Shown here one piece after another: positions 1 through 13,185 of a DNA stretch of 32,000 nt. The position numbers were made by a program, and so were the translations under genes. The DNA comes from Nostoc punctiforme PCC 73102 (GTDB lineage: Bacteria > Cyanobacteriota > Cyanobacteriia > Cyanobacteriales > Nostocaceae). The stretch covers positions 3,990,001-4,022,000 of the forward strand of contig NC_010628.1 in the NCBI RefSeq assembly GCF_000020025.1. The letters run 5' to 3'. The stretch's first letter is position 1, and each line of letters starts with the position of its first letter. A model generated the notes under the pieces. That model saw only the letters and a program-made list of their open reading frames with translations, searched no databases and was not told the DNA's origin.

Positions 1-2502
1 ATAGACAACAGAGGCTAATCCTGTAGCGCCTCCCATCCCCATCTGTTTGATTAAAGCCTGTTCGAGTTCGGGATCTCGTTCCTGAAGACCTTTGCGTAAA
101 GACTGTAAAGTTCCTAATGCTAAATCGCCAAATTCAGCTTTGTTTGTAACTGATGCTAATGCTGCTAAAAATAAAGATACGCCGCAATAACCATTATAAA
201 GATTATGGGCTATTGGTCGCAGTTGAAAATACTGCCCCTGAAAATCGTATGTCATCCCCAGCCAAGCAACAGTATTATTACTCCCATAAATAGCTCGCTG
301 CTTAATTTCTTGGGCGATTTCTATTACCCGATCCAAAATAGCTTCTTCACTCAAATGAATTATTTCGTCGAGGTTTGGAGTAGTGTTTGGTAAATTTGAT
401 AGGTCTAATTTCTCAAAAGTCTGACTTGAGTAAAACGAACTCAGAATAATACTAACTTGCTCGGCTAAATTAACATCATTTAGTTCTTTCAAGCGAGTAA
501 TTACATCATTGTAACTAGAAGTTTCAACAAATTTATCAATGGTTGTGTCTGAGTTGATAATAATTGCATTACTATCTGAATAAGCACTAATATAAGGAAT
601 ATCAAGCTGTTCTAGAGCTTGTTTTTCTGGTGCTAGCATTGGCCAAGAAGAATGTTTATCCTTTAAAGAAGTAAAACCTACAGCCAAAACATCTAACTCA
701 ATACTGCGGTCTGCTCCATCTCGAAGATATTTAGGATGCAAGGAATTCTGTAAAAGCGTCGAATAAAGTTGAGTGCTGCGAAGCACAAGACGGACTTTTT
801 GACCAGTAAATGCCGCTATGGGACTATCAGGTGCTAAGAGCGCTTTTTGATGTTGGATGAAAAACTGGTACATTTGTTTAAAGCCAGCAATTAATTCTTC
901 TACATGCTTGCTTAAGGATGTATCCAGATTTTCTCCAAAGGGTTGATTATTGTTTTCTGATAGTAGATTGCATTCTTCTTCGCCTCTGGTCATACTATCT
1001 GTATTAATATCTACCCATTTTTGCATTCTGGCAACGATTTGTTTATCGTTAAAATCTCCCAGTCCACAAAAATCAAGATTTACTAAATCATTAGTTTGTT
1101 TATAGTTAAATACCCTCACTCCTGGTAAAAGAGCAGTAGCGATAACTGAATCAAAAAGTTTTTCATTTGCTATTAATATAGCTTCAGGACTGTCTTCTCT
1201 CATCCAAAGACCGTGATGGAAGAGTGTTTCTAAATCTACTAAAACTGGTTGTTCTCCACAAGCAATTAAGTTTTCACAATGACAGTCTGTTCCTTTCAAT
1301 GTGTAGACTATAGCCAAGATCATCCCAGCCCGTTGATAATAATCTTTGACTACCTGTTGGTTTTCACATGGTAATGGGTTCACGAATTCTATCCAACCGT
1401 GACTAGAACAGTTGATAATCTTGAGGGTTTTGAGAGGTAGAGCAATCCCTCGTTGATTTATCCAAGAAATAAATTCAAAATAAGCCTGTTCTAAACCAAG
1501 GTTTTTCGGCTTGTAAACTAGTTTTAAGTTTGAGGTAAACTTGATAATGATTACCGAGCGTCCGCAATTGTGTGGATCGGAAAACGATGACTTGATATCA
1601 ACGACTTGTCCTAGTTCTCGATCGCTTTGAAAGGTTTGCTGAATTTCATCCCAGTCTGAAGCTAATCTGAGAATAAAATCTGCGGTAGCTTCAATCCAAA
1701 AGTCTGTAGCGATCGCTGCTAATCGAGCTAGTACGCTGTATTCTTGAAAGAATGCCAGCAAACCGTCGCTCAGTAAGCCTTTAACAAACTCTACATACTG
1801 CTTTCTAGAAGAATTACCTTGCAGTTGTCCGATTAAACGGACTAACTGAGAGCTTTTGTAAGCACGAGAAATTGAGAATTCTAAATCCAAGGACTCGACA
1901 AACAATTCTGTTAGTTGTTTTAACAAACTTCGTCCTATTTGGATGCTAGCAGCCTGTGATAAAAGTTGGTAGCTAGAGCCTACCCGCTCGATTAATTTCT
2001 GTTTTGCTACCTCAACAAATGGTAAACAAATCTCTTCAAAAGGTAATGGTTCTTCAGGATCTAAATATTGGTATTGTTGCTGCTTGTCTTGAGAAAAAAC
2101 GTCCTCAGCTATGGAGCCAGCAATTTCCATTGCTTTTTGCAAAGTGTCTGTCCAACTAGGTAAATATTGTGTATCTGCTAAAGCAACACTACCTAATGCA
2201 AAGCGAACTGAATCTATCTCTAGATTATCCCAACTTAAGCGCTTGATAAAGCTTTCTTGGTCGCCTTTAGCAACTATCTGACACCATCTTTCCAATCGGG
2301 AACCAATGACATAATGCTCTTTGTCTAATTTATTAGGAATAAAAGTTTTGCCGAGGCGCTCTGAAATTGTACTAGCTTTCTCGACAATTTTAATCAAATT
2401 ATATTCAGATATTTTACAGGGTAATCGGTCTAGTTTTACTAGCAATGTTGAAGTGCGATCGCTAGATATATTTAATTCTGGCGTTGCTATTTCATTGAGC
2501 AT
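1..2502 (-). CDS. lanM: Class II lanthipeptide synthetase (LanM-type). About 834 N-terminal codons are in the window; the C-terminal cyclase domain runs off the left edge.
   Basis: A minus-strand frame is open from ATG 2502..2500 to position 1. Alternative in-frame ATGs lie at 2544 and 2568, and the upstream stop is at 2590-2592. It is absent from the ORF track, presumably because it is truncated. My translation begins MLNEIATPELN... It contains the LanM dehydratase active-site block 'GTDCHCENLIACGEQPVLVDLETLFHH' and the onset of a LanC-like domain, 'WLGMTYDF...NLYNGYCGVSLFLAALA'. Confidence 0.85.
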   Translation of the reverse strand, partial: MLNEIATPELNISSDRTSTLLVKLDRLPCKISEYNLIKIVEKASTISERLGKTFIPNKLDKEHYVIGSRLERWCQIVAKGDQESFIKRLSWDNLEIDSVRFALGSVALADTQYLPSWTDTLQKAMEIAGSIAEDVFSQDKQQQYQYLDPEEPLPFEEICLPFVEVAKQKLIERVGSSYQLLSQAASIQIGRSLLKQLTELFVESLDLEFSISRAYKSSQLVRLIGQLQGNSSRKQYVEFVKGLLSDGLLAFFQEYSVLARLAAIATDFWIEATADFILRLASDWDEIQQTFQSDRELGQVVDIKSSFSDPHNCGRSVIIIKFTSNLKLVYKPKNLGLEQAYFEFISWINQRGIALPLKTLKIINCSSHGWIEFVNPLPCENQQVVKDYYQRAGMILAIVYTLKGTDCHCENLIACGEQPVLVDLETLFHHGLWMREDSPEAILIANEKLFDSVIATALLPGVRVFNYKQTNDLVNLDFCGLGDFNDKQIVARMQKWVDINTDSMTRGEEECNLLSENNNQPFGENLDTSLSKHVEELIAGFKQMYQFFIQHQKALLAPDSPIAAFTGQKVRLVLRSTQLYSTLLQNSLHPKYLRDGADRSIELDVLAVGFTSLKDKHSSWPMLAPEKQALEQLDIPYISAYSDSNAIIINSDTTIDKFVETSSYNDVITRLKELNDVNLAEQVSIILSSFYSSQTFEKLDLSNLPNTTPNLDEIIHLSEEAILDRVIEIAQEIKQRAIYGSNNTVAWLGMTYDFQGQYFQLRPIAHNLYNGYCGVSLFLAALASVTNKAEFGDLALGTLQSLRKGLQERDPELEQALIKQMGMGGATGLASVVY

Positions 2503-2799
2503 ATTTATATGACCGAATAAGGAAAAAGTTAAAAGGTGAGCCATTGCGGTGGACGGGTTCCCCGGCATAAAGCATAAGGCGTTAGCGACCTAGAAGCGTC
2601 ATCCGAAAGGCAAAAGAAAGAAAAAGAAAAATGGTTTGAATGCGAACAGCTTTGCCGCAGTCTAGCCCCTACATTTATGTATGAAACGAAGTCAAAATAT
2701 CTGTTTCAAGACACGATATGCTTTGAAACAATACGTCCTTATCAATCAAATCCCCTAAATTTATTTATGGGGATTATCTTTTTAGTTTTTACTTCTTAA

Positions 2800-3927
2800 T
2801 TACTCGTACTTATAGACTACTTTGCCAAATCTATCTTTTGCGTTATAGGTTCGCTCGAAGAAACCTTCTATATCTTTGCCAGTAAAAACAGAGTCAATTA
2901 CTACATTTAAATGGCCTAAAGCATAGTCTTGAATAGCATTTTTGAGGTCTTCGGTTAAACCAAGACAATTACCAATAATTTGAAGATTTTTGGTCATAAC
3001 CGATCCCATAATGTGGTTAGTATTTAATGAAAATGGAGTAAAGCTTTGATTAATTAATTCAAAGTATTGATCGTATAGTCCACAGGTTATGTACTTCGCT
3101 CCGATCTTCATTAGTTCAACGGACTGTCCTAAATAGAGATCGAAAAAGGGATCGAATACACAATCAAATCCGCCTGTTTCTGCAACGATGTTTTGAATTG
3201 ACTGATTTTCTAGTAAACTGTTAGGTTTTGACTCGACTAGAATCACCTTTTTGACTCCCATCGCTCTGAGTTCTTCCTCAAAAAGCCTTGAGGTACTTGT
3301 GGCATAAATATTCACGTCGTACTTTTTCAAGGCATTAATTACAAACAAGGAAGTATTAGATTTAGCTGCGGTAACTAAAATATTAGAGCCTTTTGTTGGA
3401 TTAAACTTGCGAACGATGCTGTAGCTTGTTTGCCCTCCAATACTAAAAGCAGCAGCAATTTCATCTGACATTTCTAGAGGTATTTTTATTAACTTGGCTT
3501 GATGAAATACCTGATATTCTTTTGAGGCGTGGTTGCTAGGTATGCCAGGAAATGCCTCTAGTGCGTCTGATTCTGGATAGGCATTATTAGCAATAACTCT
3601 ATCGCCAACTTTTAATTCTGTTACTTCCGAACCAGTAGCAATAACTTCGCCAACAAAATCTGAACCAACGACATAAAACGTATTTTCAGGTGCTTGTTTA
3701 GTGATTCTAAAAATAATACTCTTGTCGCGGTAATTACAGGAAAAAGCTTTTTTCTTAACTAAGACTTTAAATCGATTGCTTACGGCATTTCGATCAAAAT
3801 AAATATTTTCGGTACGAAGCAAGCCACAACGAACAAGAATACCATTCATATCTATGGTTTTTACGGAATCTTGTCCAAGGATTAAATTTTCAACTTCGTT
3901 ACTGCAAATTGCAATATTTCTCATCAT
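2800..3927 (-). CDS. lanJ: MDR-superfamily NAD(P)H oxidoreductase; candidate LanJA-type dehydroalanine/dehydrobutyrine reductase
   Basis: 375-aa ORF. It has an ADH_N-like block 'GSDFVGEVIATGSEVTELKVGDRVIANN' and a Rossmann-like segment 'GSNILVTAAKSNTSLFVINALKKYDVNIYATS'. It lies between the precursor array and lanM on the same strand. The reductase role is inferred from that context. Confidence 0.6.
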   Translation of the reverse strand: MMRNIAICSNEVENLILGQDSVKTIDMNGILVRCGLLRTENIYFDRNAVSNRFKVLVKKKAFSCNYRDKSIIFRITKQAPENTFYVVGSDFVGEVIATGSEVTELKVGDRVIANNAYPESDALEAFPGIPSNHASKEYQVFHQAKLIKIPLEMSDEIAAAFSIGGQTSYSIVRKFNPTKGSNILVTAAKSNTSLFVINALKKYDVNIYATSTSRLFEEELRAMGVKKVILVESKPNSLLENQSIQNIVAETGGFDCVFDPFFDLYLGQSVELMKIGAKYITCGLYDQYFELINQSFTPFSLNTNHIMGSVMTKNLQIIGNCLGLTEDLKNAIQDYALGHLNVVIDSVFTGKDIEGFFERTYNAKDRFGKVVYKYE

Positions 3928-4044
3928 AATTTATCATTAGAATCTATTTCAAAATTAGCCAATTATAGTTTCTAGAATGGCAATTCAATAATTCTGGAAG
4001 AAACTCTCCCCCAACCCTACCAAGGGCTAGGGGGTTAGAGTTTT

Positions 4045-4413
4045 CTATCTTCTAATTTGGTGACTCGCTAAATAACTAACACTTACTAGAAGCCCGCTCA
4101 AAGCTGAACTGATGAGTTTGGGATTACCTATTACAGCAGATATACCACCTCCAGCGATTGCCTGTAGTTGTTCTTCAGACAACTCTTGCATTATTGCTGT
4201 CGGACTTAAAGGGAGTACGAAGTATAAAGAAGTAGGATTTTCTTGCAGTACTTGCACAGTTACATCAGCAGGAAATTCCACTCCAAATTCCCGCTCAATT
4301 ACAGCTTTGGAATTGGTTAATAATTCTTGCTTGTAAGATTCATCTTTCCAAGCTTTGGCGATGATGCGGGCTTCGATGTCTTGGCGTGTTTGTGCTTGTT
4401 CTTGTTCGCTCAT
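4045..4413 (-). CDS. NHLP-leader RiPP precursor. Core: GISAVIGNPKLISSALSGLLVSVSYLASHQIRR
   Basis: The nitrile-hydratase-like leader 'MSEQEQAQTRQDIEARIIAKAWKDESYKQELLTNSKAVIEREFGVEFPADV...ELSEEQLQAIAGG' ends in a double-glycine motif. I moved the start from 4449 to ATG 4413 because an AGGAGA Shine-Dalgarno lies 8 nt upstream, as in the paralogs. The core has 7 Ser and no Cys. Confidence 0.85.
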   Translation of the reverse strand: MSEQEQAQTRQDIEARIIAKAWKDESYKQELLTNSKAVIEREFGVEFPADVTVQVLQENPTSLYFVLPLSPTAIMQELSEEQLQAIAGGGISAVIGNPKLISSALSGLLVSVSYLASHQIRR

Positions 4414-4470
4414 GTTCTGAATCTCCTGAGAATTAAAGTTTATGAACACAAATCCGATCGGATTGCCATA

Positions 4471-4875
4471 TTAGAGATGTACGCTTGAAGCGCCTATAGA
4501 GGCTCCAGTGACTAAGGCTGTTACTGAGACAGCAGCTCTCGTGATTATATTTGTGTTTTGTTTAACGGTATTTTTGACAATCGCTACGGTCACGGCCGAA
4601 TAATTTACACCAGCAGCGAGCGCTAGTAATTCCTCTTCAGATAATTCTTGGGCGATTGCTACCGGACTAATTGGTAGTACAAAATGCAAAGAGGTAGGAT
4701 TCTCTTCAAGGACTTGCACGTTAACATCAGCAGGAAATTCCACTCCAAATTCCCGCTCAATTACAGCTTTGGGATTGGTTAATAACTCTTGTTTGTATGC
4801 TTCATCTTTCCAAGCTTTGGCGATGATGCGGGCTTCGATATCTTGGCGTGTTTGCGCTTGTTCTTGTTGAGTCAT
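4471..4875 (-). CDS. NHLP-leader RiPP precursor. Core: VNYSAVTVAIVKNTVKQNTNIITRAAVSVTALVTGASIGASSVHL
   Basis: The NHLP leader is nearly identical to its neighbours. The cleavage motif is the variant 'LALAAG'. The core has 11 Ser/Thr and no Cys, and it shares the C-terminal 'GASIGASSVHL' with the 5391..5786 product. Confidence 0.85.
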   Translation of the reverse strand: MTQQEQAQTRQDIEARIIAKAWKDEAYKQELLTNPKAVIEREFGVEFPADVNVQVLEENPTSLHFVLPISPVAIAQELSEEELLALAAGVNYSAVTVAIVKNTVKQNTNIITRAAVSVTALVTGASIGASSVHL

Positions 4876-4938
4876 GTTCTAAATATCCTGAGAATTAAAG
4901 TTTATGGACAAAAATCTCATCAAATATCGGCTTAGATA

Positions 4939-4960
4939 TCGCTTGTTCTTGTTCACTCAT
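4939..4960 (-). pseudogene. Orphan 5' fragment of an NHLP precursor gene (MSEQEQA...)
   Basis: 'tcgcttgttcttgttcactcat' matches the first 22 nt of the intact genes ('gcgcttgttcttgttcgctcat') at 20/22. It lacks the upstream AGGAG, and the frame diverges immediately into a short unrelated tail. Confidence 0.35.
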
Positions 4961-4976
4961 ATAAACTTTGAGACAA

Positions 4977-5333
4977 CTATTTTGTGAGTCTCTTTAATGT
5001 GTCAACAAGAGTGATTGCTAATCCGACTGATAATGCTCCTTTCGCAAGTTCTACTCGCCAGTCTTTACCCCCTGCGATCGCTTCGAGTTGCTCTTCAGAT
5101 AATTCTTGGGCGATCGCTACTGGACTAATTGGTAGTACAAAATGCAAAGAGGTAGGATTCTCTTCAAGGACTTGCACGTTAACATCAGCAGGAAATTCCA
5201 CTCCAAATTCCCGCTCAATTACAGCTTTGGGATTGGTTACTAACTCTTGCTTGTACGCTTCATCTTTCCAAGCTTTGGCGATGATGCGGGCTTCGATGTC
5301 TTGGCGCGTTTGCGCTTGTTCTTGTTCGCTCAT
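4977..5333 (-). CDS. NHLP-leader RiPP precursor. Core: KDWRVELAKGALSVGLAITLVDTLKRLTK
   Basis: NHLP leader ending 'ELSEEQLEAIAGG'. The core is Cys-free and amphipathic with a cationic C-terminus. Confidence 0.85.
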   Translation of the reverse strand: MSEQEQAQTRQDIEARIIAKAWKDEAYKQELVTNPKAVIEREFGVEFPADVNVQVLEENPTSLHFVLPISPVAIAQELSEEQLEAIAGGKDWRVELAKGALSVGLAITLVDTLKRLTK

Positions 5334-5390
5334 GTTCTAAATCTCCTGATAATTAAAGTTTATGAATACAAATCCGATCGGATTGCTATA

Positions 5391-5786
5391 TTAGAGATGT
5401 ACGCTTGAAGCGCCTATAGAGGCTCCACTGATTAAGGCTGTTGCTGAGACAGCTGCTCTGGTTGTTTTGTAGTTTTTAACAAGGTTTGCTGATATTTTTG
5501 TTAGCTCTTTTATTTGACCACCAGCAGCGATCGCTAGTAATTCCTCTTCAGATAACTCCTGCGCGATTGTTACTGGACTAATTGGTAGTACAAAATGCAA
5601 AGAGGTAGGATTCTCTTCAAGGACTTGCACGTTAACATCAGCAGGAAATTCCACTCCAAATTCCCGTTCAATTACAGCTTTGGGATTGGTTAATAATTCT
5701 TGTTTGTATACTTCATCTTTCCAGGCTTTGGCGATGATGCGGGCTTCGATGTCTTGGCGAGTTTGCGCTTGTTCTTGTTCGCTCAT
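5391..5786 (-). CDS. NHLP-leader RiPP precursor. Core: QIKELTKISANLVKNYKTTRAAVSATALISGASIGASSVHL
   Basis: NHLP leader ending 'ELSEEELLAIAAGG'. The Cys-free core is paralogous to the 4471..4875 core. Confidence 0.85.
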   Translation of the reverse strand: MSEQEQAQTRQDIEARIIAKAWKDEVYKQELLTNPKAVIEREFGVEFPADVNVQVLEENPTSLHFVLPISPVTIAQELSEEELLAIAAGGQIKELTKISANLVKNYKTTRAAVSATALISGASIGASSVHL

Positions 5787-5889
5787 TTATCTTTCTCCTT
5801 TGTGAATTTTGTAGTTAGTGATACTTGACTTTCAAAGTTAAGATAACTCTGAGGTTTTTAGGATTGAAACCACTTAAAGCTGTCAGCCT

Positions 5890-6246
5890 TTATCTAAGTG
5901 TTTTCACAAGTGAGTGTCGTATGGGCAAAATGGGATTTATTTTTGCGGATGCGTTTGCAGATGCGAGAGTTGTCATATAACCACCAGCGATCGCTTCTAG
6001 TTGCTCTTCAGATAATTCTTGAGCGATCGCTACTGGACTAATTGGCAGTACAAAATACAAAGAAGTGGAATTCTCTTCTAGGACTTGTACGCTAACTTCA
6101 GCAGGGAATTCCACTCCAAATTCCCGCTCGATTATAGCTTTGGGATTGGTAAGCAATTCTTGTTTATACCCTTCATCTTTCCAGGCTTTGGCAACAATCC
6201 GGGCTTCGATGTTTTTGCGAGTTTGCGCTTGTTCTTGTTCGCTCAT
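5890..6246 (-). CDS. NHLP-leader RiPP precursor. Core: YMTTLASANASAKINPILPIRHSLVKTLR
   Basis: NHLP leader (MSEQEQAQTRKNIEARIVAKAWKDEGYKQELL...) ending 'EAIAGG'. Cys-free core. Confidence 0.85.
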   Translation of the reverse strand: MSEQEQAQTRKNIEARIVAKAWKDEGYKQELLTNPKAIIEREFGVEFPAEVSVQVLEENSTSLYFVLPISPVAIAQELSEEQLEAIAGGYMTTLASANASAKINPILPIRHSLVKTLR

Positions 6247-6265
6247 TTTCCTACAATATTTAAAC

Positions 6266-6619
6266 TTACTTTTTAGTTAATTTTTTCGTAGCTTTTACGA
6301 TATCCCCTGTAAAAGGTGTTACTCCTACAGCAATCGTAATTAGCCCACCTATAAAGCCTCCAGCAACCGACTCAAGTTCTTCTTCAGATAACTCTCGTCC
6401 TTCTATTTGCGGCAGAATTGGGAGGACGAAGTACAAAGAAGTGGAATTTTCTTCGTATACAGACACATTCAATTCAGCAGGTAATTCTACTCCAAATTCT
6501 TGCTCAATGATGGGTTTGGGATTGGTTAAAAGCTCTTGCTTAAAAGCTTCATTTTTCCAAGCTTTGGCGATAATTCGGGATTCGATGTCTTTACGAGTTT
6601 GCGCTTGTTGTTCGCTCAT
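6266..6619 (-). CDS. NHLP-leader RiPP precursor, the most diverged leader. Core: FIGGLITIAVGVTPFTGDIVKATKKLTKK
   Basis: Leader 'MSEQQAQTRKDIESRIIAKAWKNEAFKQELL...ELSEEELESVAGG'. Cys-free core. It is the first gene of the minus-strand array. Confidence 0.85.
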   Translation of the reverse strand: MSEQQAQTRKDIESRIIAKAWKNEAFKQELLTNPKPIIEQEFGVELPAELNVSVYEENSTSLYFVLPILPQIEGRELSEEELESVAGGFIGGLITIAVGVTPFTGDIVKATKKLTKK

Positions 6620-7007: not shown

Positions 7008-8459
7008 ATGCAGTCTAAATTCATCAACTTAAATCGCTTACTTCAATTCTTAAATCCTTTGGCGTGGTCGATTACCGTAAAGCTCTCAATAGCCTTTCTA
7101 TCAATAGCGATTTTACCTATGAGCTTTGTTGGTTATTACAATCTCAAAATGAGTACAGAAAGTATTGAAAATAGTGAATACTACAAGTTGCAACTGATTG
7201 CCACGAGTAAAGCCAATCGCCTCGATCAGTTGATTATCGATAATCAAAACACTATCAAAAATATAGCTACAGACTCTAGAGTGGGAAATTTTGTTAAGGC
7301 TGCACCTCTAAATCGGGAAAATTCCCGTTCGGAAGCGCAAAAAGTATTACAGAGAGTTGCTAACACTCACCCTAATTACGATCTTGTTTACCTTATAGAT
7401 AAAAACGGTATATGTATAGCTGCTACAGAACTTTCTTTAATTGGACGGAACTACGCTTTTCGAGAGTATTTTCAACGAGCGATCGCCGGGGATGCTTTTG
7501 TTTCTAGTATCTTAATTGGTGTGACAACCAAACGAGAGGGTGTATTCTTTACTTATCCCGTATATTCTGAAAGTGGCGAAGTTTTGGGAGTAGCAGCAAT
7601 AAAAATTACGGCAGCAGATATTTGGGCTGTGATCAACTCGGTAAATGAATCTAATATTACTTCTTTTCTGGTTGACGAACAAGGAATTATCATTAGTCAC
7701 TCTAATCGAGAGTATCTCTACAATAGCCTAATACCTTTACTGCAAGACAGCCAGAAAAAGATTGCCGCCGAAAAGCGTTATGGTCGCGATGTGATTAAAA
7801 GCTTAAATATTCCAGAGTTGAAAGTGATGCTCAATCCTGAAACATCGGGGCATACTAGCTATTACTCACCGATAGAAAAGAATTACCAGATAGTTGGTTA
7901 TGCTCCTCTACAAACTCAATCGTGGGTCGTGGGGGTTAGCAAACCCAGAGTGATATTCATGGCTCCGATAAATCTTCTCTTCGAGCAAAATATCACCTTT
8001 GTTTTGGGAGCAGGAGCGATCGCAACAATTGTTGCGCTCACATTATCTCGAACTATTAGTAAACCTATTAATATTTTAATAGCTGCATCTCGAAGTTTAG
8101 AGCAAGGAGATTTTATTCACCATGAATCTAATTTATACAGAAATTTGCTCAAGACTTCTCGCACTCAAGATGATATGGGTCAATTGGTACGGGTATTTAT
8201 GAAAATGGCAGAAGAAGTGAGAGTGCGAGAGCAAAAAATGGAACTTCAGATGCAAGAACTACGCATTGAAATTGATGAAACTAAAAAAGCTAATCAGGTA
8301 GCTGAAATTACCGGAACACAATATTTTCAAGAACTCCAATACAAGGCAAAAAAACTGAGAAATAGAGCAGAAGTTAGAGATAAAACTCCAATAGATTATT
8401 TACATAATTTGCAAAAGAAAGTGCAAGCTCAAAAAGCTCGGTTACAAGTCGGTCGATAA
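7008..8459 (+). CDS. Membrane sensor with a periplasmic Cache-like domain, a HAMP-like linker and a C-terminal coiled coil. No recognisable enzymatic output domain.
   Basis: 483 aa. N-terminal TM helix 'ITVKLSIAFLSIAILPMSFVGYY'. Cache-like blocks 'GRNYAFREYFQRAIAGDAFVSSILIG...GVFFTYPVYSESGEVLGVAAIKI'. Second TM plus HAMP 'FVLGAGAIATIVALTLSRTISKPINILIAASRSLEQGDF'. The tail is charged and heptad-like. Confidence 0.7.
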   Translation: MQSKFINLNRLLQFLNPLAWSITVKLSIAFLSIAILPMSFVGYYNLKMSTESIENSEYYKLQLIATSKANRLDQLIIDNQNTIKNIATDSRVGNFVKAAPLNRENSRSEAQKVLQRVANTHPNYDLVYLIDKNGICIAATELSLIGRNYAFREYFQRAIAGDAFVSSILIGVTTKREGVFFTYPVYSESGEVLGVAAIKITAADIWAVINSVNESNITSFLVDEQGIIISHSNREYLYNSLIPLLQDSQKKIAAEKRYGRDVIKSLNIPELKVMLNPETSGHTSYYSPIEKNYQIVGYAPLQTQSWVVGVSKPRVIFMAPINLLFEQNITFVLGAGAIATIVALTLSRTISKPINILIAASRSLEQGDFIHHESNLYRNLLKTSRTQDDMGQLVRVFMKMAEEVRVREQKMELQMQELRIEIDETKKANQVAEITGTQYFQELQYKAKKLRNRAEVRDKTPIDYLHNLQKKVQAQKARLQVGR

Positions 8460-8477
8460 AATTGGATAGTTGCAGAT

Positions 8478-11078
8478 ATGTCATTTGATGAACTGATTTC
8501 GCGCCAAGACTTACTAGCAGGACTCCCTGCTAAACGTACCAATACTTTGCTCTTTCTGATTGAAAGGCAAACAGCACGACTAGCAGCCCGATCGCGAGTT
8601 GAGTTTTCTCTTACCGACTCAGCCGAGCGCGATCGCGAGTTGGCCTTTCTAGAGGCTTTTACTCTAGGAAAAGCCCCTGCGCTCCGCCCGACAATTCAGC
8701 AATTAGAACGTTTTGCTCCCCAATGGTCGGTACTTGTACCAGATAATCCCACACTGAAAGCGTCTTTAATCAACACTTTATGTCAAAAATACAGTTTCAC
8801 TAAGCAATTAGTTCCCAATATCCGAGCGGCTTTAAACTGCGAGCAATTAGGAGTCGAGCAAGCTTATCAACGCCTCTACCAAAAACCGATCGCAGTGGCT
8901 TTCGCCTCCCAAGTGCCCCTCAAAGAGAGATTGTCTTGGATAGCAGCAGCGAGTATCCAAAAGGTAGAATCCTTACCACCTTTCTGGATCGCTTCTTTAG
9001 TCACAATTGCCTTGGGACTTCCTCAAGCCTTCCTCGCTCTACCCATTGCTGTCGCTGAGTTAGGGCCTCTTGCAAGTGTGGCATTTCTGATTGTTTTGGG
9101 AATGATTAACATCTTGACAATGGTTTGTATGGCAGAATCCATCGCTCGTAGTGAAGACTTTGTTTCTGGCAAAACCTTCATTAAACAATTAGCAACAAAC
9201 TACTTGGGTAAAGCTGGTTCTCTAATTCTTTCGGTTGCTGTCGGGATTCGCGTCTTTTTAATCGCCCTAGCCTGTTACATCGGGTTATCAGCGACAATGG
9301 CAAGTTTTACTTCTCTACCAGCTTCCTTGTGGGCGGGTTTACTTTTTTTATTTGGACTATACATACTGTCGCGTAAGTCCCTAAATTTGACCATTGGGGT
9401 AACAATTTTGTTAGCAGGATTAAATGTTAGCTTGCTCTTATTTTTAACAGTACTTTCTTTTGGGCATTGGCAGCTAGCTAATGTATTGTACGTTAACTGG
9501 GCTTTTTTCGATGGGAGTGCTTTCAATCTCCAGGTATTCCATCAAGTCTTTGGTGTTACCTTAATGCTTTACTTCGGCCATGTATATGTGGGCGAATGTG
9601 CAAAAGTAGTACTACCAAAAGACCCAAGCGCCACCTCCTTAATTTGGGGAAGTATCACCGGTACAGCTTTTTTGACTTTCCTATTTTGCCTTTGGGTGCT
9701 GGCAGTCAATGGAGCGATCGCACCACAGATACTAGCAACCCAAACAGGAACAGTTTTAGAACCACTGGCGCAGCAAAATGGCCCAATAGTGAAAATCGTC
9801 GGTGCAATACTCGTCACTTTTTTGTTGGGAATGGCATGGTTTAGGAGTTCTAGTCTTCTAGTCAACTTGGCGCGAGAATGGCTTCCTAGCCAACCGCAAA
9901 CGATTTTGACATTACCTAGCCAGCAGGGTAAACTAATTTTGCGAACTCGCGATCGCTACAATCTCTGCTCAATTGGTCTAACTTATCTAGGACTCGCACA
10001 CGGACAGCCTACCTTCGATCTCGATATTCAATTGAAAGGTAATATCCATCAATTAGAGATTAAAGTTGCTAAAAGTTGGGATATTAAAGAATTAATCTTT
10101 AAACTTTCCGACCTAAATCTATATGATGTAGACCTGAAGATAGAAATACAATCGGTTAGTGAAGATCGTGTATGCTTGAAAGTCATCTCTGCAATGGCGA
10201 TCGCCTACGAGGGAGCTTTAGAGAGAACGCGCGATGAAGATAAAACCACTCACAAGCAGAAATTCCAAAAAGCGATCGCGCAACAGGCTTGGGTATATCT
10301 ATTAGAACAACGTCAATTCTTACTTTCTATTACTCCTCTATTCCTGGTATTTTTGTTAACCGAAGGACTGTTCTTCTCTGGACAGCAATCCTTTACCAGC
10401 GTTCTCGGCTTCGCTGGAGTACTGGGTAACTCTCTTGTTGGTGGGATTTTTCCAGTTCTCCTACTGGCTTCTAGCCGACAAAAGGGTGAAATTTTACCAG
10501 GTATTGTTTTAAAGCTGCTCAACTCTCCCTGGTTACTTGGCAGCATCTATAGTTTCTCTTTGTTTATCCTTCTACTCCACGGCTTATTCATCTGGCAAAA
10601 TCCCCTAGCCCGGATCGCTGTCTTGGGCGTTACTATCCTCTCCTTAGCAGCTACCTTCGTGATGTGGCAGACTGGAGCCTTCATGTCCCGCACGGTAATA
10701 GAGTTACAAGAAAACAAGCAACAAGGAGGACAAACTTTCTTCAAAATAACCGCCGGTGGCCGACCAAAAACAGCACAAGTCAAACTAGGATATGCAGACG
10801 GCGAAGAAACCCATCAAGCGGCTTCTGTAGAAATTCCCTCTCTCTCGTCTCTGCGTTATGCCATTTTTCAATTACCAACTAAAGAATCAGAAGAACTCAG
10901 GGTGTGGGCGCACAGCAATAACCCTAACGGTGACTCTGAAAGCTTGCCCGCATTCTTAGAAATAAATCGAGAAAACCGTAAGATGCAGTTTGATTTAAAA
11001 CTGTTCGGCGGCAAGGTTTTATTGCCTCTGATTAACGGTAAATACTGCTTAAAACTTGAATTCCCAACAGCCGGATGA
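8478..11078 (+). CDS. Large polytopic membrane protein. The core resembles an amino-acid permease (APC / aromatic amino-acid transporter type), with soluble N-terminal, central and C-terminal domains.
   Basis: 866 aa. A soluble ~165-aa N-terminus is followed by many hydrophobic helices, e.g. 'LPPFWIASLVTIALGLPQAFLALPIAVAELGPLASVAFLIVLGMINILTMVCMAESIA'. A soluble insert spans roughly aa 480-610, then more helices, then a beta-rich tail. The start lies 18 nt after the upstream stop. Confidence 0.6.
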   Translation: MSFDELISRQDLLAGLPAKRTNTLLFLIERQTARLAARSRVEFSLTDSAERDRELAFLEAFTLGKAPALRPTIQQLERFAPQWSVLVPDNPTLKASLINTLCQKYSFTKQLVPNIRAALNCEQLGVEQAYQRLYQKPIAVAFASQVPLKERLSWIAAASIQKVESLPPFWIASLVTIALGLPQAFLALPIAVAELGPLASVAFLIVLGMINILTMVCMAESIARSEDFVSGKTFIKQLATNYLGKAGSLILSVAVGIRVFLIALACYIGLSATMASFTSLPASLWAGLLFLFGLYILSRKSLNLTIGVTILLAGLNVSLLLFLTVLSFGHWQLANVLYVNWAFFDGSAFNLQVFHQVFGVTLMLYFGHVYVGECAKVVLPKDPSATSLIWGSITGTAFLTFLFCLWVLAVNGAIAPQILATQTGTVLEPLAQQNGPIVKIVGAILVTFLLGMAWFRSSSLLVNLAREWLPSQPQTILTLPSQQGKLILRTRDRYNLCSIGLTYLGLAHGQPTFDLDIQLKGNIHQLEIKVAKSWDIKELIFKLSDLNLYDVDLKIEIQSVSEDRVCLKVISAMAIAYEGALERTRDEDKTTHKQKFQKAIAQQAWVYLLEQRQFLLSITPLFLVFLLTEGLFFSGQQSFTSVLGFAGVLGNSLVGGIFPVLLLASSRQKGEILPGIVLKLLNSPWLLGSIYSFSLFILLLHGLFIWQNPLARIAVLGVTILSLAATFVMWQTGAFMSRTVIELQENKQQGGQTFFKITAGGRPKTAQVKLGYADGEETHQAASVEIPSLSSLRYAIFQLPTKESEELRVWAHSNNPNGDSESLPAFLEINRENRKMQFDLKLFGGKVLLPLINGKYCLKLEFPTAG

Positions 11079-11233: not shown

Positions 11234-12025
11234 ATGAGTCAAATTATTTCTGTTCATTCATTCCGTGGCGGTACTGGCAAATCTAATATGACTGCCAACC
11301 TAGCTACGACTCTAGCATTACAAGGAAAAAGAATAGCTATCATTGATACCGACATTCAATCACCAGGAATTCACGTTATTTTTGGTCTGAACGAGCAGAA
11401 GATGAATAATTGTTTAAATGATTATCTGTGGGGTAAGTGTGCAATTGAAGATGCTGCCTACGATGTCACTCATCTTTTAAAGGGAGAAGGAGGCAGTGGT
11501 AAACTTTACCTGATTCCTTCTAGTATTAATCCCGGTCAAATTACCCGAATTCTACGTGAAGGATATGACGTAGCCAGACTCAACGATGGTTTTTACGAAA
11601 TCATTAATGCTTTAGATTTGGATTATTTATTAATTGATACCCATCCCGGACTCAATGAAGAAACTTTACTTTCTATTGCAATTTCGGATATTCTTGTTGT
11701 GATTTTACGTCCAGATCAACAAGACTTCCAAGGAACTGCTGTGACACTGGAAGTTGCCCGCAAATTAGAAGTACCTAAGATGATGCTGGTAGTTAATAAA
11801 GTATTATCTACATTCGATTTTAATGCTTTGCAACAAGAGGTAGAGTCTACCTATAAAACCCCAGTTGCTGGTATTGTTCCCCTATCAGAAGATATCATTC
11901 GCCTTGCCAGTAGTAATATTTTCTGTTTGCTCTATACAAGCCATCCCTTCAGTCAGGTAGTGCAAAAAATTACTGCACAAATTATTAGGGAACAAGCCAA
12001 GGTAGCGGTTAGAGGAGCTTTTTAA
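11234..12025 (+). CDS. MinD/ParA-family P-loop ATPase
   Basis: 263 aa. Deviant Walker A '[16 protein letters not shown]', 'IAIIDTD', and Walker B-like 'YLLIDTHPG'. GGAG lies 8 nt upstream of the ATG. Confidence 0.75.
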
Positions 12026-13185
12026 TGGAACGGCAAAAATTTCGGGCTGCCATACTTGCCGCTTATGGTGCTACTGAATCGGAAATCGAAGAACTGCTAG
12101 TTTACAATCAAAATGTTTTTGAACATGATAACTGGCAACCATCTCTAAAATTTCCCCTCGAACCAGAATTGCATATTGAGACTTGGGAAAATTACGCTGT
12201 CAACGCTAGAGAAATAGGTGTTTTTGAAACCCTCAAGCAGGTATTTGTTCAATTTTCGTTTCCTATTCAAGAAGGAATTAGTCAAACTGAAGCCTACCGT
12301 GCTGCTACTTTGAAAGGAGTTAATCTTGATGGCATCTCTGAGGCGACTGATTTAGTTCTTGAACATCCAGACAAGCTAGATTTAAAAATTTATCAAAGTT
12401 TAGCTGGGGCGATTCCGGTTATACTTCCTGGTAATCGAGAGGATTTTGTTTCTTTAGTGCGATCGCTAACCAAACGTAATGAACCCCAATTCATTCCAGA
12501 TTCTATGGGGGCTTGTATGGTTGCTGGTTACAATAATTGGGATCGAATTCGCCGCTATCGCCAACAATGGGAAAGAGAAAATCCAGCAAATTGCTCTGAA
12601 ACAGCTTGGACAACAGAGTTTAAACGGCTGATTCCCGATAAAAATCGCTATCAAGACCGATTTATTATTCTCAGCGATGGATTTTATAGTAACGTTTCCC
12701 CTAGTGATATTGGACTTCCAGAATCAGAATGGCGGCGTTTATCTCTGACAATTCGCTTGGAACACGAATGCACTCACTACCTTACCCGCCGCCTATTTAA
12801 CTCAATGCAAAATAATCTCCTCGACGAGCTAATCGCTGACTATCGAGGGATTGTTGCTGCGACTGGAGGCTATCGAGCCGATTGGTTCTTACGTTTTATG
12901 GGTTTAGAATCATTAGACAATTATCGAGAAAGCGGTAGATTGCAAAACTATCGGGGTGAACCGCCGCTTTCAGATGGAGCTTTTAGGATTTTACAAGCTT
13001 TAGTGACAGATGCAGCTTTGAATTTAGAGCGTTTCGATGCTGAATATATTAATAAATTAAGCGTTGGTAATGAGCGGAATTTGTTAGCGATCGCCTTGAC
13101 TTATTCAACATTAGAAGAATTAGCTTCCCAAGAAAATACTTCCTATCTTGTGACGATTTTAGAGCAACTAGAGACTGAGAGTTAA
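12025..13185 (+). CDS. Conserved-looking hypothetical protein with an HExxH motif (possible metallopeptidase)
   Basis: 386 aa. 'RLEHECTHYLTRR' contains H-E-C-T-H. The start overlaps the ATPase stop (TAATG at 12023-12027), which implies translational coupling. Confidence 0.5.
   Translation: MERQKFRAAILAAYGATESEIEELLVYNQNVFEHDNWQPSLKFPLEPELHIETWENYAVNAREIGVFETLKQVFVQFSFPIQEGISQTEAYRAATLKGVNLDGISEATDLVLEHPDKLDLKIYQSLAGAIPVILPGNREDFVSLVRSLTKRNEPQFIPDSMGACMVAGYNNWDRIRRYRQQWERENPANCSETAWTTEFKRLIPDKNRYQDRFIILSDGFYSNVSPSDIGLPESEWRRLSLTIRLEHECTHYLTRRLFNSMQNNLLDELIADYRGIVAATGGYRADWFLRFMGLESLDNYRESGRLQNYRGEPPLSDGAFRILQALVTDAALNLERFDAEYINKLSVGNERNLLAIALTYSTLEELASQENTSYLVTILEQLETES

What the first reader, a model, noticed from the sequence alone, without database searches (positions are those of the whole stretch)
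1..6619. LanM synthetase plus MDR reductase with six NHLP precursors that contain no cysteine: dehydration and reduction to linear D-amino-acid peptides instead of lanthionines
All six cores lack Cys, so thioether rings cannot form. They are rich in Ser/Thr: 7 Ser in the 4045 core and 11 Ser/Thr in the 4471 core. The only tailoring genes on the operon strand are a LanM dehydratase/cyclase and an MDR-type NAD(P)H oxidoreductase. Established lanthipeptide chemistry applies here: LanJA-class reductases (LtnJ, and NpnJ of Nostoc punctiforme) reduce Dha to D-Ala and Dhb to D-Abu. The predicted products are therefore linear, hydrophobic or amphipathic peptides with multiple D-residues and cationic tails. 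This closely resembles the published npn locus and may be the same locus or an ortholog. As far as I recall, the native products and their function remain uncharacterised. Whether the LanM cyclase domain retains its Zn ligands cannot be seen, because it lies off the window.
Basis: partly seen in the sequence, partly recalled or inferred. Interest (0 to 1): 0.7.

Follow-up and report, generated by a model that had tools for sequence, protein, structure and literature searches.

The report
Known Nostoc npn D-alanine peptide locus
This is the already published npn gene cluster of Nostoc punctiforme PCC 73102, in which a lanthipeptide-type dehydratase and a reductase turn serines of six cysteine-free precursor peptides into D-alanines; the natural products have still never been detected, and neighbouring conserved genes suggest the pathway may have more steps than described.

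Summary
The minus strand of 1-6619 holds six tandem NHLP-leader precursor genes with no cysteine at all, a 375-aa MDR reductase, and the first 848 residues of a LanM.

This is not an orthologue. The proteins are 100% identical to Nostoc punctiforme PCC 73102 entries (ACC81659.1, ACC81662.1, ACC81664.1; 8,234,322-bp chromosome). [quoted passage not shown]

One correction: NpnJA and LtnJ are reported to reduce only Dha to D-Ala, not Dhb to D-Abu. Thr-derived Dhb should persist.

Additions:
- **Cyclase domain.** Full-length NpnM keeps a three-Cys zinc site (C996, C1041, C1042) but has Gln in place of the catalytic His (Q947). All 12 cyanobacterial LanMs found next to an NpnJ homologue have a damaged cyclase tetrad.
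- **Processing and export.** The leader peptidase/exporter (TIGR03796), HlyD (TIGR03794) and a transport-associated protein (TIGR03896) lie in the same window.
- **Possible extra tailoring.** Two MBL-fold proteins and a 2OG-Fe oxygenase on the other strand recur beside LanJA/LanM in distant cyanobacteria.

Verdict: already known. Interest is low to moderate.

The parts
1..2544 (-). npnM, class II lanthipeptide synthetase. The window holds residues 1-848 of 1126: the whole dehydratase domain and the first ~95 residues of the LanC-like domain. The start is the ATG at 2544, or the ATG at 2502 as in orthologues.
   Evidence: Pfam DUF4135 E 4.8e-128. The full-length 100%-identical protein P0126 matches TIGR03897 at E 7.9e-293. 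The window translation equals the P0126 N-terminus.
2800..3927 (-). npnJ (NpnJA), MDR-family NADPH-dependent dehydroalanine reductase, 375 aa.
   Evidence: ADH_N and ADH_zinc_N domains. 100% identical to ACC81659.1/WP_012409638.1 of N. punctiforme. 32% identical to LtnJ of pMRC01, E 2e-53. Family-specific invariant motifs SCN(Y/F)RDK, AKS.TSLF, DPFFD, TCGL and IIGNC (A2).
4008..4033 (-). Terminator-like hairpin (11 pairs, 7 G-C) between the last precursor gene and npnJ. It is probably an attenuator that sets a high ratio of precursor to enzyme.
   Evidence: It is a consensus match only; the number of such sites in the region is no higher than in shuffled sequence.
4045..4413 (-). NHLP precursor, core ISAVIGNPKLISSALSGLLVSVSYLASHQIRR (7 Ser, 0 Thr, 0 Cys).
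4471..4875 (-). NHLP precursor whose leader ends AAG; core of 45 aa (5 Ser, 6 Thr, 0 Cys).
4977..5333 (-). NHLP precursor (ACC81662.1), core KDWRVELAKGALSVGLAITLVDTLKRLTK (1 Ser, 3 Thr, 0 Cys).
   Evidence: The core is conserved in Nostoc sp. KVJ3.
5391..5786 (-). NHLP precursor, core of 41 aa (6 Ser, 4 Thr, 0 Cys). Its C-terminal half is shared with the 4471 core.
5890..6246 (-). NHLP precursor (ACC81664.1), core YMTTLASANASAKINPILPIRHSLVKTLR (3 Ser, 3 Thr, 0 Cys).
6266..6619 (-). NHLP precursor, first in the array, core FIGGLITIAVGVTPFTGDIVKATKKLTKK (0 Ser, 5 Thr, 0 Cys).
   Evidence: The core is conserved in Nostoc sp. KVJ3.
7008..11078 (+). Divergent gene pair: a dCache/HAMP sensor-like protein (483 aa, no kinase domain found) and an 866-aa polytopic membrane protein. 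Role unknown. Both are linked to npn-type loci in Nostoc; in Aetokthonos the sensor-like protein and a partial match to the membrane protein at the locus edge are also present.
   Evidence: A homologous 869-aa protein heads the conserved gene row in L020.
11234..14364 (+). ParA/MinD-like ATPase, DUF7005 protein, and the 'bacteriocin-type transport-associated' cyclic-nucleotide-binding protein (TIGR03896). This is the accessory part of the NHLP/Nif11 export system.
   Evidence: TIGR03896 E 3.4e-101, 338.8 bits against a cut-off of 161. The same trio lies next to LanJA/LanM in L016 and L020; two of the three (ParA, DUF7005) also in L007.
15097..18374 (+). Two tandem MBL-fold paralogues (487 and 485 aa, 85% identical). 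They are candidate extra tailoring enzymes.
   Evidence: Homologues lie directly downstream of LanJA in L016, L017, L019 and L020. The model has pLDDT 89; the best fold matches are FrsH and CmlA, both described as hydroxylases.
19919..20542 (+). 2OG-Fe(II) oxygenase (207 aa), a candidate extra tailoring enzyme.
   Evidence: Pfam 2OG-FeII_Oxy_3. Homologues of 48-54% identity occur in L016, L017, L019 and L020 beside LanJA/LanM.
29645..31105 (+). NHLP bacteriocin system secretion protein (HlyD family).
   Evidence: TIGR03794 E 2.5e-124, 415 bits against a cut-off of 156.
31092..32000 (+). N-terminus (C39 peptidase domain and first transmembrane helices) of the NHLP-family export ABC transporter. 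It runs off the right end. It is the predicted double-glycine leader peptidase and exporter for the NpnA peptides.
   Evidence: TIGR03796 E 2.3e-135 over profile positions 1-274 of 710. Start codon GTG 31092 or TTG 31143.

Best explanation
The region is the npn cluster of Nostoc punctiforme PCC 73102.

**Proposed pathway.**
1. The six NpnA precursors are transcribed as a tandem array. A hairpin after the last precursor probably limits read-through into npnJ and npnM.
2. NpnM binds the conserved NHLP leader. Its N-terminal kinase/lyase domain phosphorylates Ser/Thr in the core and eliminates phosphate, giving Dha and Dhb.
3. No thioether can form, because the cores have no Cys and the cyclase-like domain of NpnM lacks the catalytic acid (Gln947 in place of His).
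4. NpnJA uses NADPH to reduce Dha stereoselectively to D-Ala. Dhb from Thr is left unreduced.
5. The C39-peptidase ABC exporter, with its HlyD partner and accessory proteins (all encoded in the same window), cuts after the Gly-Gly motif and secretes linear, cationic, hydrophobic peptides that carry D-Ala and Dhb.

**Basis of each step.**
- Shown by others: dehydration of cognate NpnA precursors (NpnA3, NpnA6) with unlinked dehydroamino acids, attributed to NpnM, and in vitro Dha reduction by NpnJA.
- Shown here: identity of the locus, absence of Cys, membership of the LanJA family, the state of the cyclase active site, and the presence of the export genes.
- Inferred: the order of steps in vivo, cleavage by this particular exporter, the attenuator role of the hairpin, and the function of the final products.
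For: - **Identity.** The reductase is 100% identical to ACC81659.1 and two precursors to ACC81662.1 and ACC81664.1, all from N. punctiforme PCC 73102 on an 8,234,322-bp contig.
- **Published description.** The npn cluster is described as Cys-free Ser/Thr-rich prepeptides, a dehydratase and the NADPH-dependent Dha reductase NpnJA, with linear D-amino-acid peptides hypothesised (PMC5808125; PMC12328550). NpnA3 and NpnA6 are named as Cys-free (bioRxiv 10.64898/2026.08.14.744816).
- **Dha-only specificity.**
- **LanJA relationship.** LtnJ E 2e-53. There is a clear gap to the other hits listed, mostly generic alcohol dehydrogenases.
- **Cyclase state.** Q947/C996/C1041/C1042. The equivalent His is the enolate-protonating acid, and mutating it is deleterious in NisC, SpaC, LctM, ProcM and LanCL1/2 (PMC9934072).
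- **Comparative pattern.** All 12 cyanobacterial LanMs beside an NpnJ homologue have at least one of the four residues replaced. By contrast, 78 of 113 full-length homologues, nearly all at 48% identity or less, are intact HCCC.
- **Cys-free cores elsewhere.** 31 further NHLP cores beside NpnJ homologues have no Cys. Cores are conserved between Nostoc species.
- **Export genes.**
Against: - The primary paper (PMC4599312) is not in the library, so the match between ACC81659.1 and 'NpnJA' rests on organism, architecture and secondary sources.
- The native peptides have never been detected in N. punctiforme, so the end product is unproven.
- The cyclase-like domain is not decaying freely. Against its four closest Nostoc orthologues it is 84-86% identical, against 74-76% for the dehydratase domain, and it keeps the three-Cys zinc site. 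That suggests a retained role which the simple model does not explain.
- Conserved MBL-fold and 2OG-Fe genes nearby may add modifications.
- NpnM did not dehydrate a foreign GLP core in E. coli. This shows core dependence, although it does not argue against action on its own substrates.
Confidence: 0.8

Rival explanations
1. The two-enzyme pathway is incomplete. The tandem MBL-fold proteins (15097-18374) and the 2OG-Fe(II) oxygenase (19919-20542) also tailor the NpnA peptides, for example by hydroxylation. The natural products would then differ from the NpnM + NpnJA products made in E. coli.
For: - Homologues of the MBL protein lie immediately downstream of LanJA in four distant cyanobacterial loci (L016, L017, L019, L020). 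A 2OG-Fe homologue is present in all four.
- L020 has the same gene families on one strand, in this order: 869-aa membrane protein, ParA, DUF7005, cNMP-binding protein, a distant second-type MBL-fold protein, 2OG-Fe, two unknowns, LanJA, the MBL homologue, an IS element, LanM.
- The confident model (pLDDT 89) best matches FrsH and CmlA, both described as hydroxylases (E 3e-10 to 4e-9).
- The HxHxDH motif is invariant.
- It would explain why predicted masses have never been found in the native host.
Against: - In the window these genes are 11-16 kb from npnJ, on the other strand, and separated from it by an IS fragment. They sit next to three Nif11 precursors and may serve those instead.
- They are absent from the +/-10 kb flanks of the Aetokthonos locus (L003) and from L018, L006 and L008.
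- The MBL family also shares contigs with LanMs that have intact cyclases, so it is not specific to LanJA.
- The fold match covers only about 290 of 485 residues at 15-18% identity.
Confidence: 0.3
2. The dehydro residues are the point of the system. Unreduced Dha/Dhb react between molecules, with thiols or amines of other peptides or cell components, to give covalent oligomers or conjugates. This has been proposed for cyanobacterial lanthipeptides by Brussow et al. (2026).
For: - The preprint names NpnA3 and NpnA6 as candidates and shows oligomerisation for nostolanthin.
- NpnJA does not reduce Dhb, so Thr-rich cores would keep electrophiles (five Thr in the 6266 core).
- The products escape conventional detection.
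Against: - A dedicated, strictly co-conserved Dha reductase argues that removing the reactive Dha is selected for.
- Dhb is a poor Michael acceptor without an enzyme.
- No oligomer of an Npn peptide has been reported.
Confidence: 0.12
3. The cyclase-like domain of NpnM still catalyses something. Possibilities are thioether formation on Cys-containing substrates encoded elsewhere, or addition of another nucleophile such as Lys to Dha, using its intact three-Cys zinc site.
For: - The three-Cys site is kept, and the domain is more conserved than the dehydratase domain among the QCCC Nostoc orthologues (84-86% against 74-76%).
- Gln at the acid position is itself conserved in at least 9 sequences.
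- The cores have Lys-rich tails.
- A Nif11-type ORF with one Cys follows the NpnM orthologue in Nostoc sp. P6602.
Against: - Loss of the His is deleterious in every LanC-type enzyme tested.
- More distant members of the same LanJA-linked group lose the zinc ligands altogether: QACW, SAMW, HTAW, ECCG.
- The small Nif11 ORF has no Cys in Nostoc sp. KVJ3.
- The conservation could simply reflect a structural or substrate-binding role.
Confidence: 0.08
4. The 375-aa protein is a housekeeping quinone oxidoreductase that merely sits beside the LanM gene.
For: NCBI names it 'quinone oxidoreductase family protein'. Pfam and NCBIfam give only generic MDR matches below the family cut-offs.
Against: - It is much closer to LtnJ and the staphylococcin C55 and pediocin A plasmid LanJA homologues (E 1e-43 to 3e-63) than to the other hits listed, mostly generic alcohol dehydrogenases (E 6e-17 or worse).
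- A LanM gene lies close to its homologue in 15 of the 16 other loci examined; L008 gave no LanM match.
- It shares family-specific motifs with LtnJ.
- Published enzymology exists for NpnJA.
Confidence: 0.01

Closest known systems
[quoted passage not shown]
   Same: It is the same DNA: 100% identical proteins, the same organism, Cys-free NHLP precursors, a LanM and an MDR reductase.
   Different: Nothing differs in the core. The sources I could read do not mention the Gln-for-His state of the NpnM cyclase domain, the export genes 25 kb away, or the conserved MBL-fold and 2OG-Fe neighbours. I could not read the primary paper.
Lacticin 3147 system (LtnA1/A2, LtnM1/M2, LtnT, LtnJ) on pMRC01
   Same: A LanM dehydratase is followed by a LanJA-type MDR reductase that converts Ser via Dha to D-Ala. 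NpnJ is 32% identical to LtnJ.
   Different: Lacticin 3147 peptides contain Cys and lanthionine rings. LtnM1/M2 keep the full His/Cys/Cys/His cyclase site. Its leaders are short double-glycine leaders, not NHLP, and the transporter lies inside the operon.
Prochlorosin / ProcM-type ('CCG') cyanobacterial LanM systems; 'cyanotins' (Walker et al. 2020)
   Same: One LanM serves many precursors that share a long conserved leader and have hypervariable cores. NpnM shares the three-Cys 'LCCG' zinc motif. I recall this motif as typical of ProcM; I did not verify that here. Walker et al. noted that some cores in the cyanotin family lack Cys.
   Different: The 78 homologues with an intact tetrad keep the catalytic His (GFSHG). 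NpnM and its LanJA-linked relatives do not, and they have a reductase partner.
Bicereucin / carnolysin (LanJB flavin reductases)
   Same: Ser/Thr is dehydrated and then reduced to D-residues. From memory, one bicereucin peptide is nearly free of rings.
   Different: LanJB enzymes are FMN-dependent, unrelated in fold, and reduce both Dha and Dhb. NpnJA is an MDR enzyme and specific for Dha.
Pseudanabaena galeata CCNP1313 plasmid LanM-like locus (PMC11356792)
   Same: The precursor is Cys-free, the LanM lacks zinc ligands, and an NHLP-type exporter lies nearby. The locus also holds an NpnJ homologue (48.5% identity), an MBL-fold gene and 2OG-Fe genes.
   Different: It has a Nif11 rather than an NHLP leader, the zinc ligands are fully lost (SAMW), and the core ends in the motif PIKW. 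The paper did not notice the reductase.

Membership tests
Published npn locus of N. punctiforme PCC 73102 | The sequence comes from N. punctiforme PCC 73102. | tested here: met
   The reductase and two precursors are 100% identical to ACC81659.1, ACC81662.1 and ACC81664.1, on a contig of 8,234,322 bp.
Published npn locus of N. punctiforme PCC 73102 | Several Cys-free, Ser/Thr-containing precursors (at least NpnA3 and NpnA6), with a LanM and an NADPH-dependent dehydrogenase. | tested here: met
   Six Cys-free precursors, a LanM and an MDR protein.
Published npn locus of N. punctiforme PCC 73102 | Accession or locus tag given in the primary paper equals this gene. | not testable with these tools
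   PMC4599312 is not held. No secondary source read gives an accession.
Class II lanthipeptide synthetase (LanM) | N-terminal DUF4135 kinase/lyase dehydratase domain. | tested here: met
   PF13575 E 4.8e-128. TIGR03897 E 7.9e-293 on the full-length protein P0126.
Class II lanthipeptide synthetase (LanM) | C-terminal LanC-like domain with three zinc ligands (Cys-Cys-His or Cys-Cys-Cys). | tested here: met
   C996, C1041 and C1042 align with the ligands of LicM2, LanCL1 and the LtnMs. These residues lie off the window and were read from P0126.
Class II lanthipeptide synthetase (LanM) | Conserved active-site His that protonates the enolate during cyclisation. | tested here: not met
   Gln947 is in the GFSQG motif where LicM2, LanCL1, the LtnMs and 78 cyanobacterial LanMs have His.
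LanJA (zinc/NADPH-type MDR dehydroalanine reductase) | MDR fold with GroES-like and Rossmann domains. | tested here: met
   PF08240 E 1.4e-11; PF00107 E 1.3e-6, below its gathering score. The PDB matches are all MDR enzymes.
LanJA (zinc/NADPH-type MDR dehydroalanine reductase) | Specific sequence relationship to LtnJ rather than to generic alcohol dehydrogenases or quinone reductases. | tested here: met
   LtnJ 32% identity over 346 aa, E 2e-53. A tblastn search of plasmids shows a gap between LanJA homologues (E 1e-40 or better) and the other hits listed (E 6e-17 or worse).
LanJA (zinc/NADPH-type MDR dehydroalanine reductase) | Encoded next to a lanthipeptide dehydratase and its precursors. 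| tested here: met
   Seen in the window and in 15 of the 16 other loci with NpnJ homologues; L008 gave no LanM match.
LanJA (zinc/NADPH-type MDR dehydroalanine reductase) | Catalyses NADPH-dependent reduction of Dha to D-Ala. | not testable with these tools
   Reported for NpnJA in vitro and in E. coli by others.
NHLP-leader RiPP precursors (TIGR03793) with their export system | Nitrile-hydratase-like leader domain. | tested here: met
   TIGR03793 at 113.6 bits against a cut-off of 50.9. Pfam NHase_alpha for all six.
NHLP-leader RiPP precursors (TIGR03793) with their export system | Gly-Gly type cleavage motif at the end of the leader. | tested here: met
   AGG or AAGG in five precursors, AAG in the 4471 precursor.
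NHLP-leader RiPP precursors (TIGR03793) with their export system | Cognate C39-peptidase ABC exporter and HlyD-family partner. | tested here: met
   TIGR03796 E 2.3e-135 (partial gene). TIGR03794 E 2.5e-124 and TIGR03896 E 3.4e-101. That they act on NpnA is inferred.
Lanthipeptides (product class) | Core peptide contains Cys that forms (methyl)lanthionine. | tested here: not met
   There is no Cys in any of the six precursors. The products cannot be lanthipeptides in the strict sense.

The most novel reading that the evidence does not exclude
The published NpnM + NpnJA pathway may be only part of a larger, conserved cyanobacterial system. That system pairs a cyclase-dead LanM and a Dha reductase with MBL-fold enzymes (best fold matches FrsH and CmlA, both described as hydroxylases), a 2OG-Fe(II) oxygenase, and a dedicated accessory and export set (866-aa membrane protein, ParA-like ATPase, DUF7005, cNMP-binding protein, HlyD, C39-ABC). 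The true natural products would then be oxidised D-Ala/Dhb peptides. Their masses would differ from those searched for so far, which would explain why they have never been detected in the native host.
Probability: 0.3. Interest if true: 0.6.

Novelty: already known. Interest (0 to 1): 0.3.

Why it matters
The finding as stated rediscovers a characterised locus. NpnJA is already in use as a tool to install D-alanine in recombinant peptides. What is still open is the biology: the native Npn peptides and their function have never been seen.

- The cyclase domain carries a clade-wide signature of lost catalysis. This is comparative-sequence support for the idea that these LanMs work as dedicated dehydratases.
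- Thr-derived Dhb should survive, so the products are not simply 'all-D' reduced peptides.
- A conserved set of unstudied neighbours (MBL-fold, 2OG-Fe, DUF7005 and others) gives concrete candidates for missing steps, which can be tested by co-expression.

Standard lanthipeptide mining discards Cys-free precursors, so this family is systematically under-sampled.

Tried and rejected
- **Primary paper.** I tried to read the NpnJ paper (PMC4599312), the bicereucin paper (PMC4851115) and a guessed PMC id for a lanthipeptide review (PMC5408752). None is held, so the published details come from secondary sources.
- **DNA upstream of the window.** The one genome-contig scan returned ten related loci but not N. 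punctiforme itself. The look-up of encoding contigs for the reductase gave only 1.2-1.5 kb read-assembly contigs. I took the missing part of LanM from the 100%-identical protein P0126 instead.
- **Regex motif scan.** A regex scan of cyclase motifs was replaced by MAFFT column reads, because the regex missed variants.
- **RNA and promoters.** An Rfam search of the whole window found nothing. The promoter scan found fewer sites than in shuffled sequence and is not used.
- **Other N. punctiforme clusters.** I considered whether the locus is the nostolysamide (npu) or nostolanthin (nlt) cluster. Both are rejected: npu has accessions WP_012412979-81, and nlt cores carry the motif (S/T)HxHxSCCxDCP with Cys.
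- **Nif11 peptides at 20758-22143.** I considered whether they belong to the '...IKW' family seen beside LanJA elsewhere. They do not; the cores are unrelated.
- **Housekeeping quinone reductase.** Considered and rejected.

Full report
**What is in the sequence.**
The minus strand of 1-6619 carries six tandem precursor genes: 6266-6619, 5890-6246, 5391-5786, 4977-5333, 4471-4875 and 4045-4413. They are followed by a 375-aa gene (2800-3927) and a large ORF that starts at 2544 and runs off the left end. All six small proteins match the nitrile-hydratase alpha family. One tested against NCBIfam scores 113.6 bits on TIGR03793 'NHLP leader peptide family RiPP precursor', against a cut-off of 50.9. 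The leaders are about 89 aa, nearly identical, and end in AGG, AAGG or AAG. The cores are 29-45 aa and hypervariable. At the DNA level the array is six 300-nt direct repeats spaced about 460 nt apart. None of the six proteins contains a single cysteine.

But two cores are poor in Ser (0 Ser/5 Thr and 1 Ser/3 Thr). The 375-aa protein has the two MDR domains. The truncated ORF is a LanM, with DUF4135 at E 4.8e-128 plus the start of a LanC-like domain. A terminator-like hairpin (4008-4033, 11 pairs) lies between the last precursor gene and the reductase gene.

**Where it comes from.**
The reductase is 100% identical over its full length to ACC81659.1/WP_012409638.1. Two precursors are identical to ACC81662.1 and ACC81664.1. 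All are from Nostoc punctiforme PCC 73102, on a contig of 8,234,322 bp. The window is therefore the N. punctiforme chromosome, and the region is the published npn locus itself, not an orthologue.

I could not open the primary paper. Secondary sources describe the locus as follows:
- It is a cluster in N. punctiforme with Ser/Thr-rich prepeptides that have no Cys, and a dehydratase.
- The authors hypothesised linear peptides containing D-amino acids.
- They demonstrated in vitro that NpnJA is an NADPH-dependent dehydroalanine reductase (PMC5808125; PMC12328550).

A 2026 preprint names NpnA3 and NpnA6 as Cys-free. It states that the cluster is transcribed but that its products have escaped detection in the native host.

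**The reductase groups with LanJA enzymes.**
A tblastn search against plasmids finds three sets of LanJA homologues:
- LtnJ on pMRC01: 32% identity, E 1e-43, located directly after ltnM2.
- Homologues on S. aureus plasmids, which I take to be the staphylococcin C55 type: E 2e-44.
- The Pediococcus pentosaceus plasmid homologue: E 3e-63. I link this to the pediocin A cluster through.

The remaining hits listed, most of them annotated as NAD(P)-dependent alcohol dehydrogenases, reach only E 6e-17 or worse. A direct BLASTP of NpnJ against LtnJ gives E 2e-53 over 346 residues. An alignment shows family-specific invariant motifs: SCN(Y/F)RDK, AKS.TSLF, DPFFD, TCGL and IIGNC.

**Correction to the chemistry.**
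Three independent sources state that NpnJA and LtnJ reduce Dha only. Reduction of Dhb to D-Abu is a property of the flavin LanJB enzymes and of the exceptional RodJA. The expected products therefore carry D-Ala at former Ser positions and keep Dhb at former Thr positions. The first precursor in the array has no Ser and would receive no D-residue.

A search with the LanM fragment returned a 100%-identical full-length protein, P0126, of 1126 aa. The window encodes its residues 1-848. I aligned it to LicM2 (PDB 6st5) and LanCL1, and in MAFFT alignments with 112 full-length homologues and the LtnMs. The alignments show:
- the first zinc ligand is kept (C996, in the motif NWCHG);
- the usual Cys-His pair is Cys-Cys (C1041-C1042, in the motif LCCG), as in the 78 intact cyanobacterial homologues. 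I recall this three-Cys site as ProcM-like, but did not verify that here;
- the conserved His is Gln (Q947, GFSQG where others have GFSHG).

That His is the acid that protonates the enolate. Replacing it damages NisC, SpaC, LctM, ProcM and LanCL1/2 (PMC9934072).

The pattern holds across the clade. Of 113 full-length homologues, 78 have the intact HCCC tetrad, and nearly all of those are 48% identical to NpnM or less. The closer relatives almost all carry substitutions such as QCCC, ECCC, NCCC, KCCC, HCAC, ECCG and DCYC. Every one of the 12 cyanobacterial LanMs that I found next to an NpnJ homologue has at least one of the four residues replaced:

| Tetrad | Loci |
|---|---|
| QCCC | window, L001, L002, L021 |
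| ECCC | L005 |
| HCAC | L003 |
| ECCG | L004 |
| SAMW | L016 |
| QACW | L017, L018, L019 |
| HTAW | L020 |

The LanMs next to LanJA in a Chloroflexota MAG (L006) and in Lactococcus (LtnM1/M2) are intact HCCH.

In intact LanMs the cyclase domain is more conserved than the dehydratase domain (identity ratio 1.03-1.24). In the degenerate group the ratio is 0.93-1.02. There is one caveat. Against its four nearest Nostoc orthologues, the cyclase-like domain of NpnM is 84-86% identical, against 74-76% for the dehydratase domain. The domain is therefore still under constraint, perhaps for folding or substrate binding.

The loss of zinc ligands together with a Cys-free precursor had been noted for the Pseudanabaena plasmid LanM (PMC11356792). 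That paper did not mention the adjacent reductase.

**Relatives.**
NpnJ homologues of 49-75% identity lie near a LanM in Nostoc, Aetokthonos, Stigonema, Pleurocapsa, Halotia, Leptothermofonsia, Pseudanabaena and other genomes. The 31 NHLP precursors in six of these loci all have Cys-free cores. Taken with the window, that is about 1,050 core residues without Cys, roughly 3e-5 by chance at a 1% background frequency (my own arithmetic). Several cores are conserved between N. punctiforme and Nostoc sp. KVJ3, for example FIGGLITIAVGVTPFTGDIVKATKKLTKK against TIGGLLSLAIGVTPYTGDIVKATKKLTKK. This indicates functional peptides. A second sub-family uses Nif11 leaders and Cys-free cores that end in (K/P)IKW.

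**The locus is larger than 1-6619.**
On the plus strand the window also encodes the following:

| Coordinates | Product |
|---|---|
| 7008-8459 | dCache/HAMP protein |
| 8478-11078 | 866-aa membrane protein |
| 11234-12025 | ParA/MinD-like ATPase |
| 12025-13185 | DUF7005 protein |
| 13273-14364 | 'bacteriocin-type transport-associated' cNMP-binding protein (TIGR03896, E 3.4e-101) |
| 15097-18374 | two MBL-fold paralogues, 85% identical to each other |
| 18837-19667 | ISKra4 transposase fragment |
| 19919-20542 | 2OG-Fe(II) oxygenase |
| 29645-31105 | NHLP secretion protein (TIGR03794, E 2.5e-124) |
| 31092-32000 | N-terminus of the NHLP peptidase/ABC exporter (TIGR03796, E 2.3e-135), which runs off the right end |

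The last three supply the double-glycine leader peptidase and the export route that the precursors need.

The same families recur beside LanJA and LanM elsewhere. In L020 they form one co-directional row: 869-aa membrane protein, ParA, DUF7005, cNMP-binding protein, a distant second-type MBL-fold protein, 2OG-Fe, two unknowns, LanJA, the MBL homologue, an IS element, LanM. In Halotia (L017), L019 and the Pseudanabaena plasmid (L016), LanJA is followed directly by a homologue of the window's MBL proteins (43-49% identity), and a 2OG-Fe homologue is present.

A model of the MBL protein is confident (pLDDT 89, pTM 0.88). Its best matches in the PDB are FrsH and CmlA, both described as hydroxylases (E 3e-10 to 4e-9). 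These are followed by NAPE-PLD and other MBL-fold hydrolases. Only about 290 of 485 residues align, at 15-18% identity, so this is a hint and not an assignment.

The link has limits. The MBL family also shares contigs with intact-cyclase LanMs. It is absent from the flanks of L003 and L018. In the window it sits next to three Nif11 precursors and may serve those instead. No paper in the library mentions 'MBL fold' together with lanthipeptides.

**Verdict.**
It needs one chemical correction (Dha only) and one omission fixed (the export genes and candidate tailoring genes elsewhere in the window). The finding is already known.

What remains of interest is the clade-wide inactivation signature of the cyclase domain. 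There is also a moderately supported possibility, which I put at about 0.3, that the natural pathway includes oxidative steps not yet studied.

Noticed in passing
window 20758-27282 (+): This looks like a second, apparently undescribed RiPP-like gene set. Three Nif11-leader precursors (20815-21102, 21328-21615, 21850-22143) have short, Lys-rich, Cys-free cores: KGKKTTNNDYSKNIQYG(I/L)QP and KGDVKATYNDASKTLYFPQKKK. They are followed by a 295-aa GNAT (22287-23174) and a 1336-aa Pls/PosA-type single-module NRPS (A-PCP plus TIGR02353 terminal domain, 23272-27282). Their leaders end in ELSEEQLEAIVGG, almost the same as the NpnA leaders (ELSEEQLEAIAGG). The set is distinct from the published npu (nostolysamide) cluster.
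   Followed up: partly
window 15097-16560 and 16917-18374 (+): Two tandem MBL-fold paralogues are 85% identical, with an invariant HxHxDH motif. The structure model (pLDDT 89) best matches FrsH and CmlA, both described as hydroxylases. Homologues sit directly downstream of LanJA in four distant cyanobacterial loci. JGI labels some family members 'UDP-MurNAc hydroxylase'.
   Followed up: partly
window 18837-19667 (+): A truncated ISKra4-family transposase (276 aa, matching profile positions 115-416 of 422) lies between the MBL genes and the 2OG-Fe oxygenase gene. It suggests the island has been rearranged. L020 also has a transposase, between the MBL gene and LanM.
   Followed up: no
window 7008-11078 (+): A dCache/HAMP protein with no recognisable output domain is paired with an 866-aa polytopic membrane protein that matches no Pfam or NCBIfam family. 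The pair is kept next to npn-type loci in three other Nostoc genomes (89-94% identity). In Aetokthonos the sensor-like protein (41% identity) and a partial 147-aa match (53%) to the membrane protein at the locus edge are present. A homologous 869-aa protein heads the conserved row in L020.
   Followed up: partly
window 28300-29640: A stretch of about 1.3 kb with low G+C (31%) and no ORF of 90 aa or more lies between the 256-aa unknown gene and the HlyD gene.
   Followed up: no
L002 14887-15201 and L021 14639-14926: A small Nif11-like ORF whose core ends in ...FD(S/R)FDVYLT lies immediately downstream of the NpnM orthologues in two Nostoc genomes. The P6602 copy has one Cys and the KVJ3 copy has none. 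The equivalent position in N. punctiforme lies beyond the left end of the window.
   Followed up: no
L016 3421-3759; L017 12816-13560; L018 7450-8348; L019 13685-14425: A family of Nif11 precursors lies beside LanJA and zinc-ligand-less LanMs (QACW or SAMW). Their cores are Cys-free, rich in Gly, Ala, Ser and Thr, and end in a conserved (K/P)IKW motif. One extra L019 precursor (13052-13363) breaks the pattern, with one Cys and a PSKW ending.
   Followed up: partly
L006 6644-11134 (Chloroflexota MAG): Here an NpnJ homologue (55% identity) follows a LanM that keeps the full His/Cys/Cys/His site. LanJA is therefore not always paired with a dead cyclase outside cyanobacteria. No precursor was identified in that locus with my simple motif scan.
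   Followed up: partly
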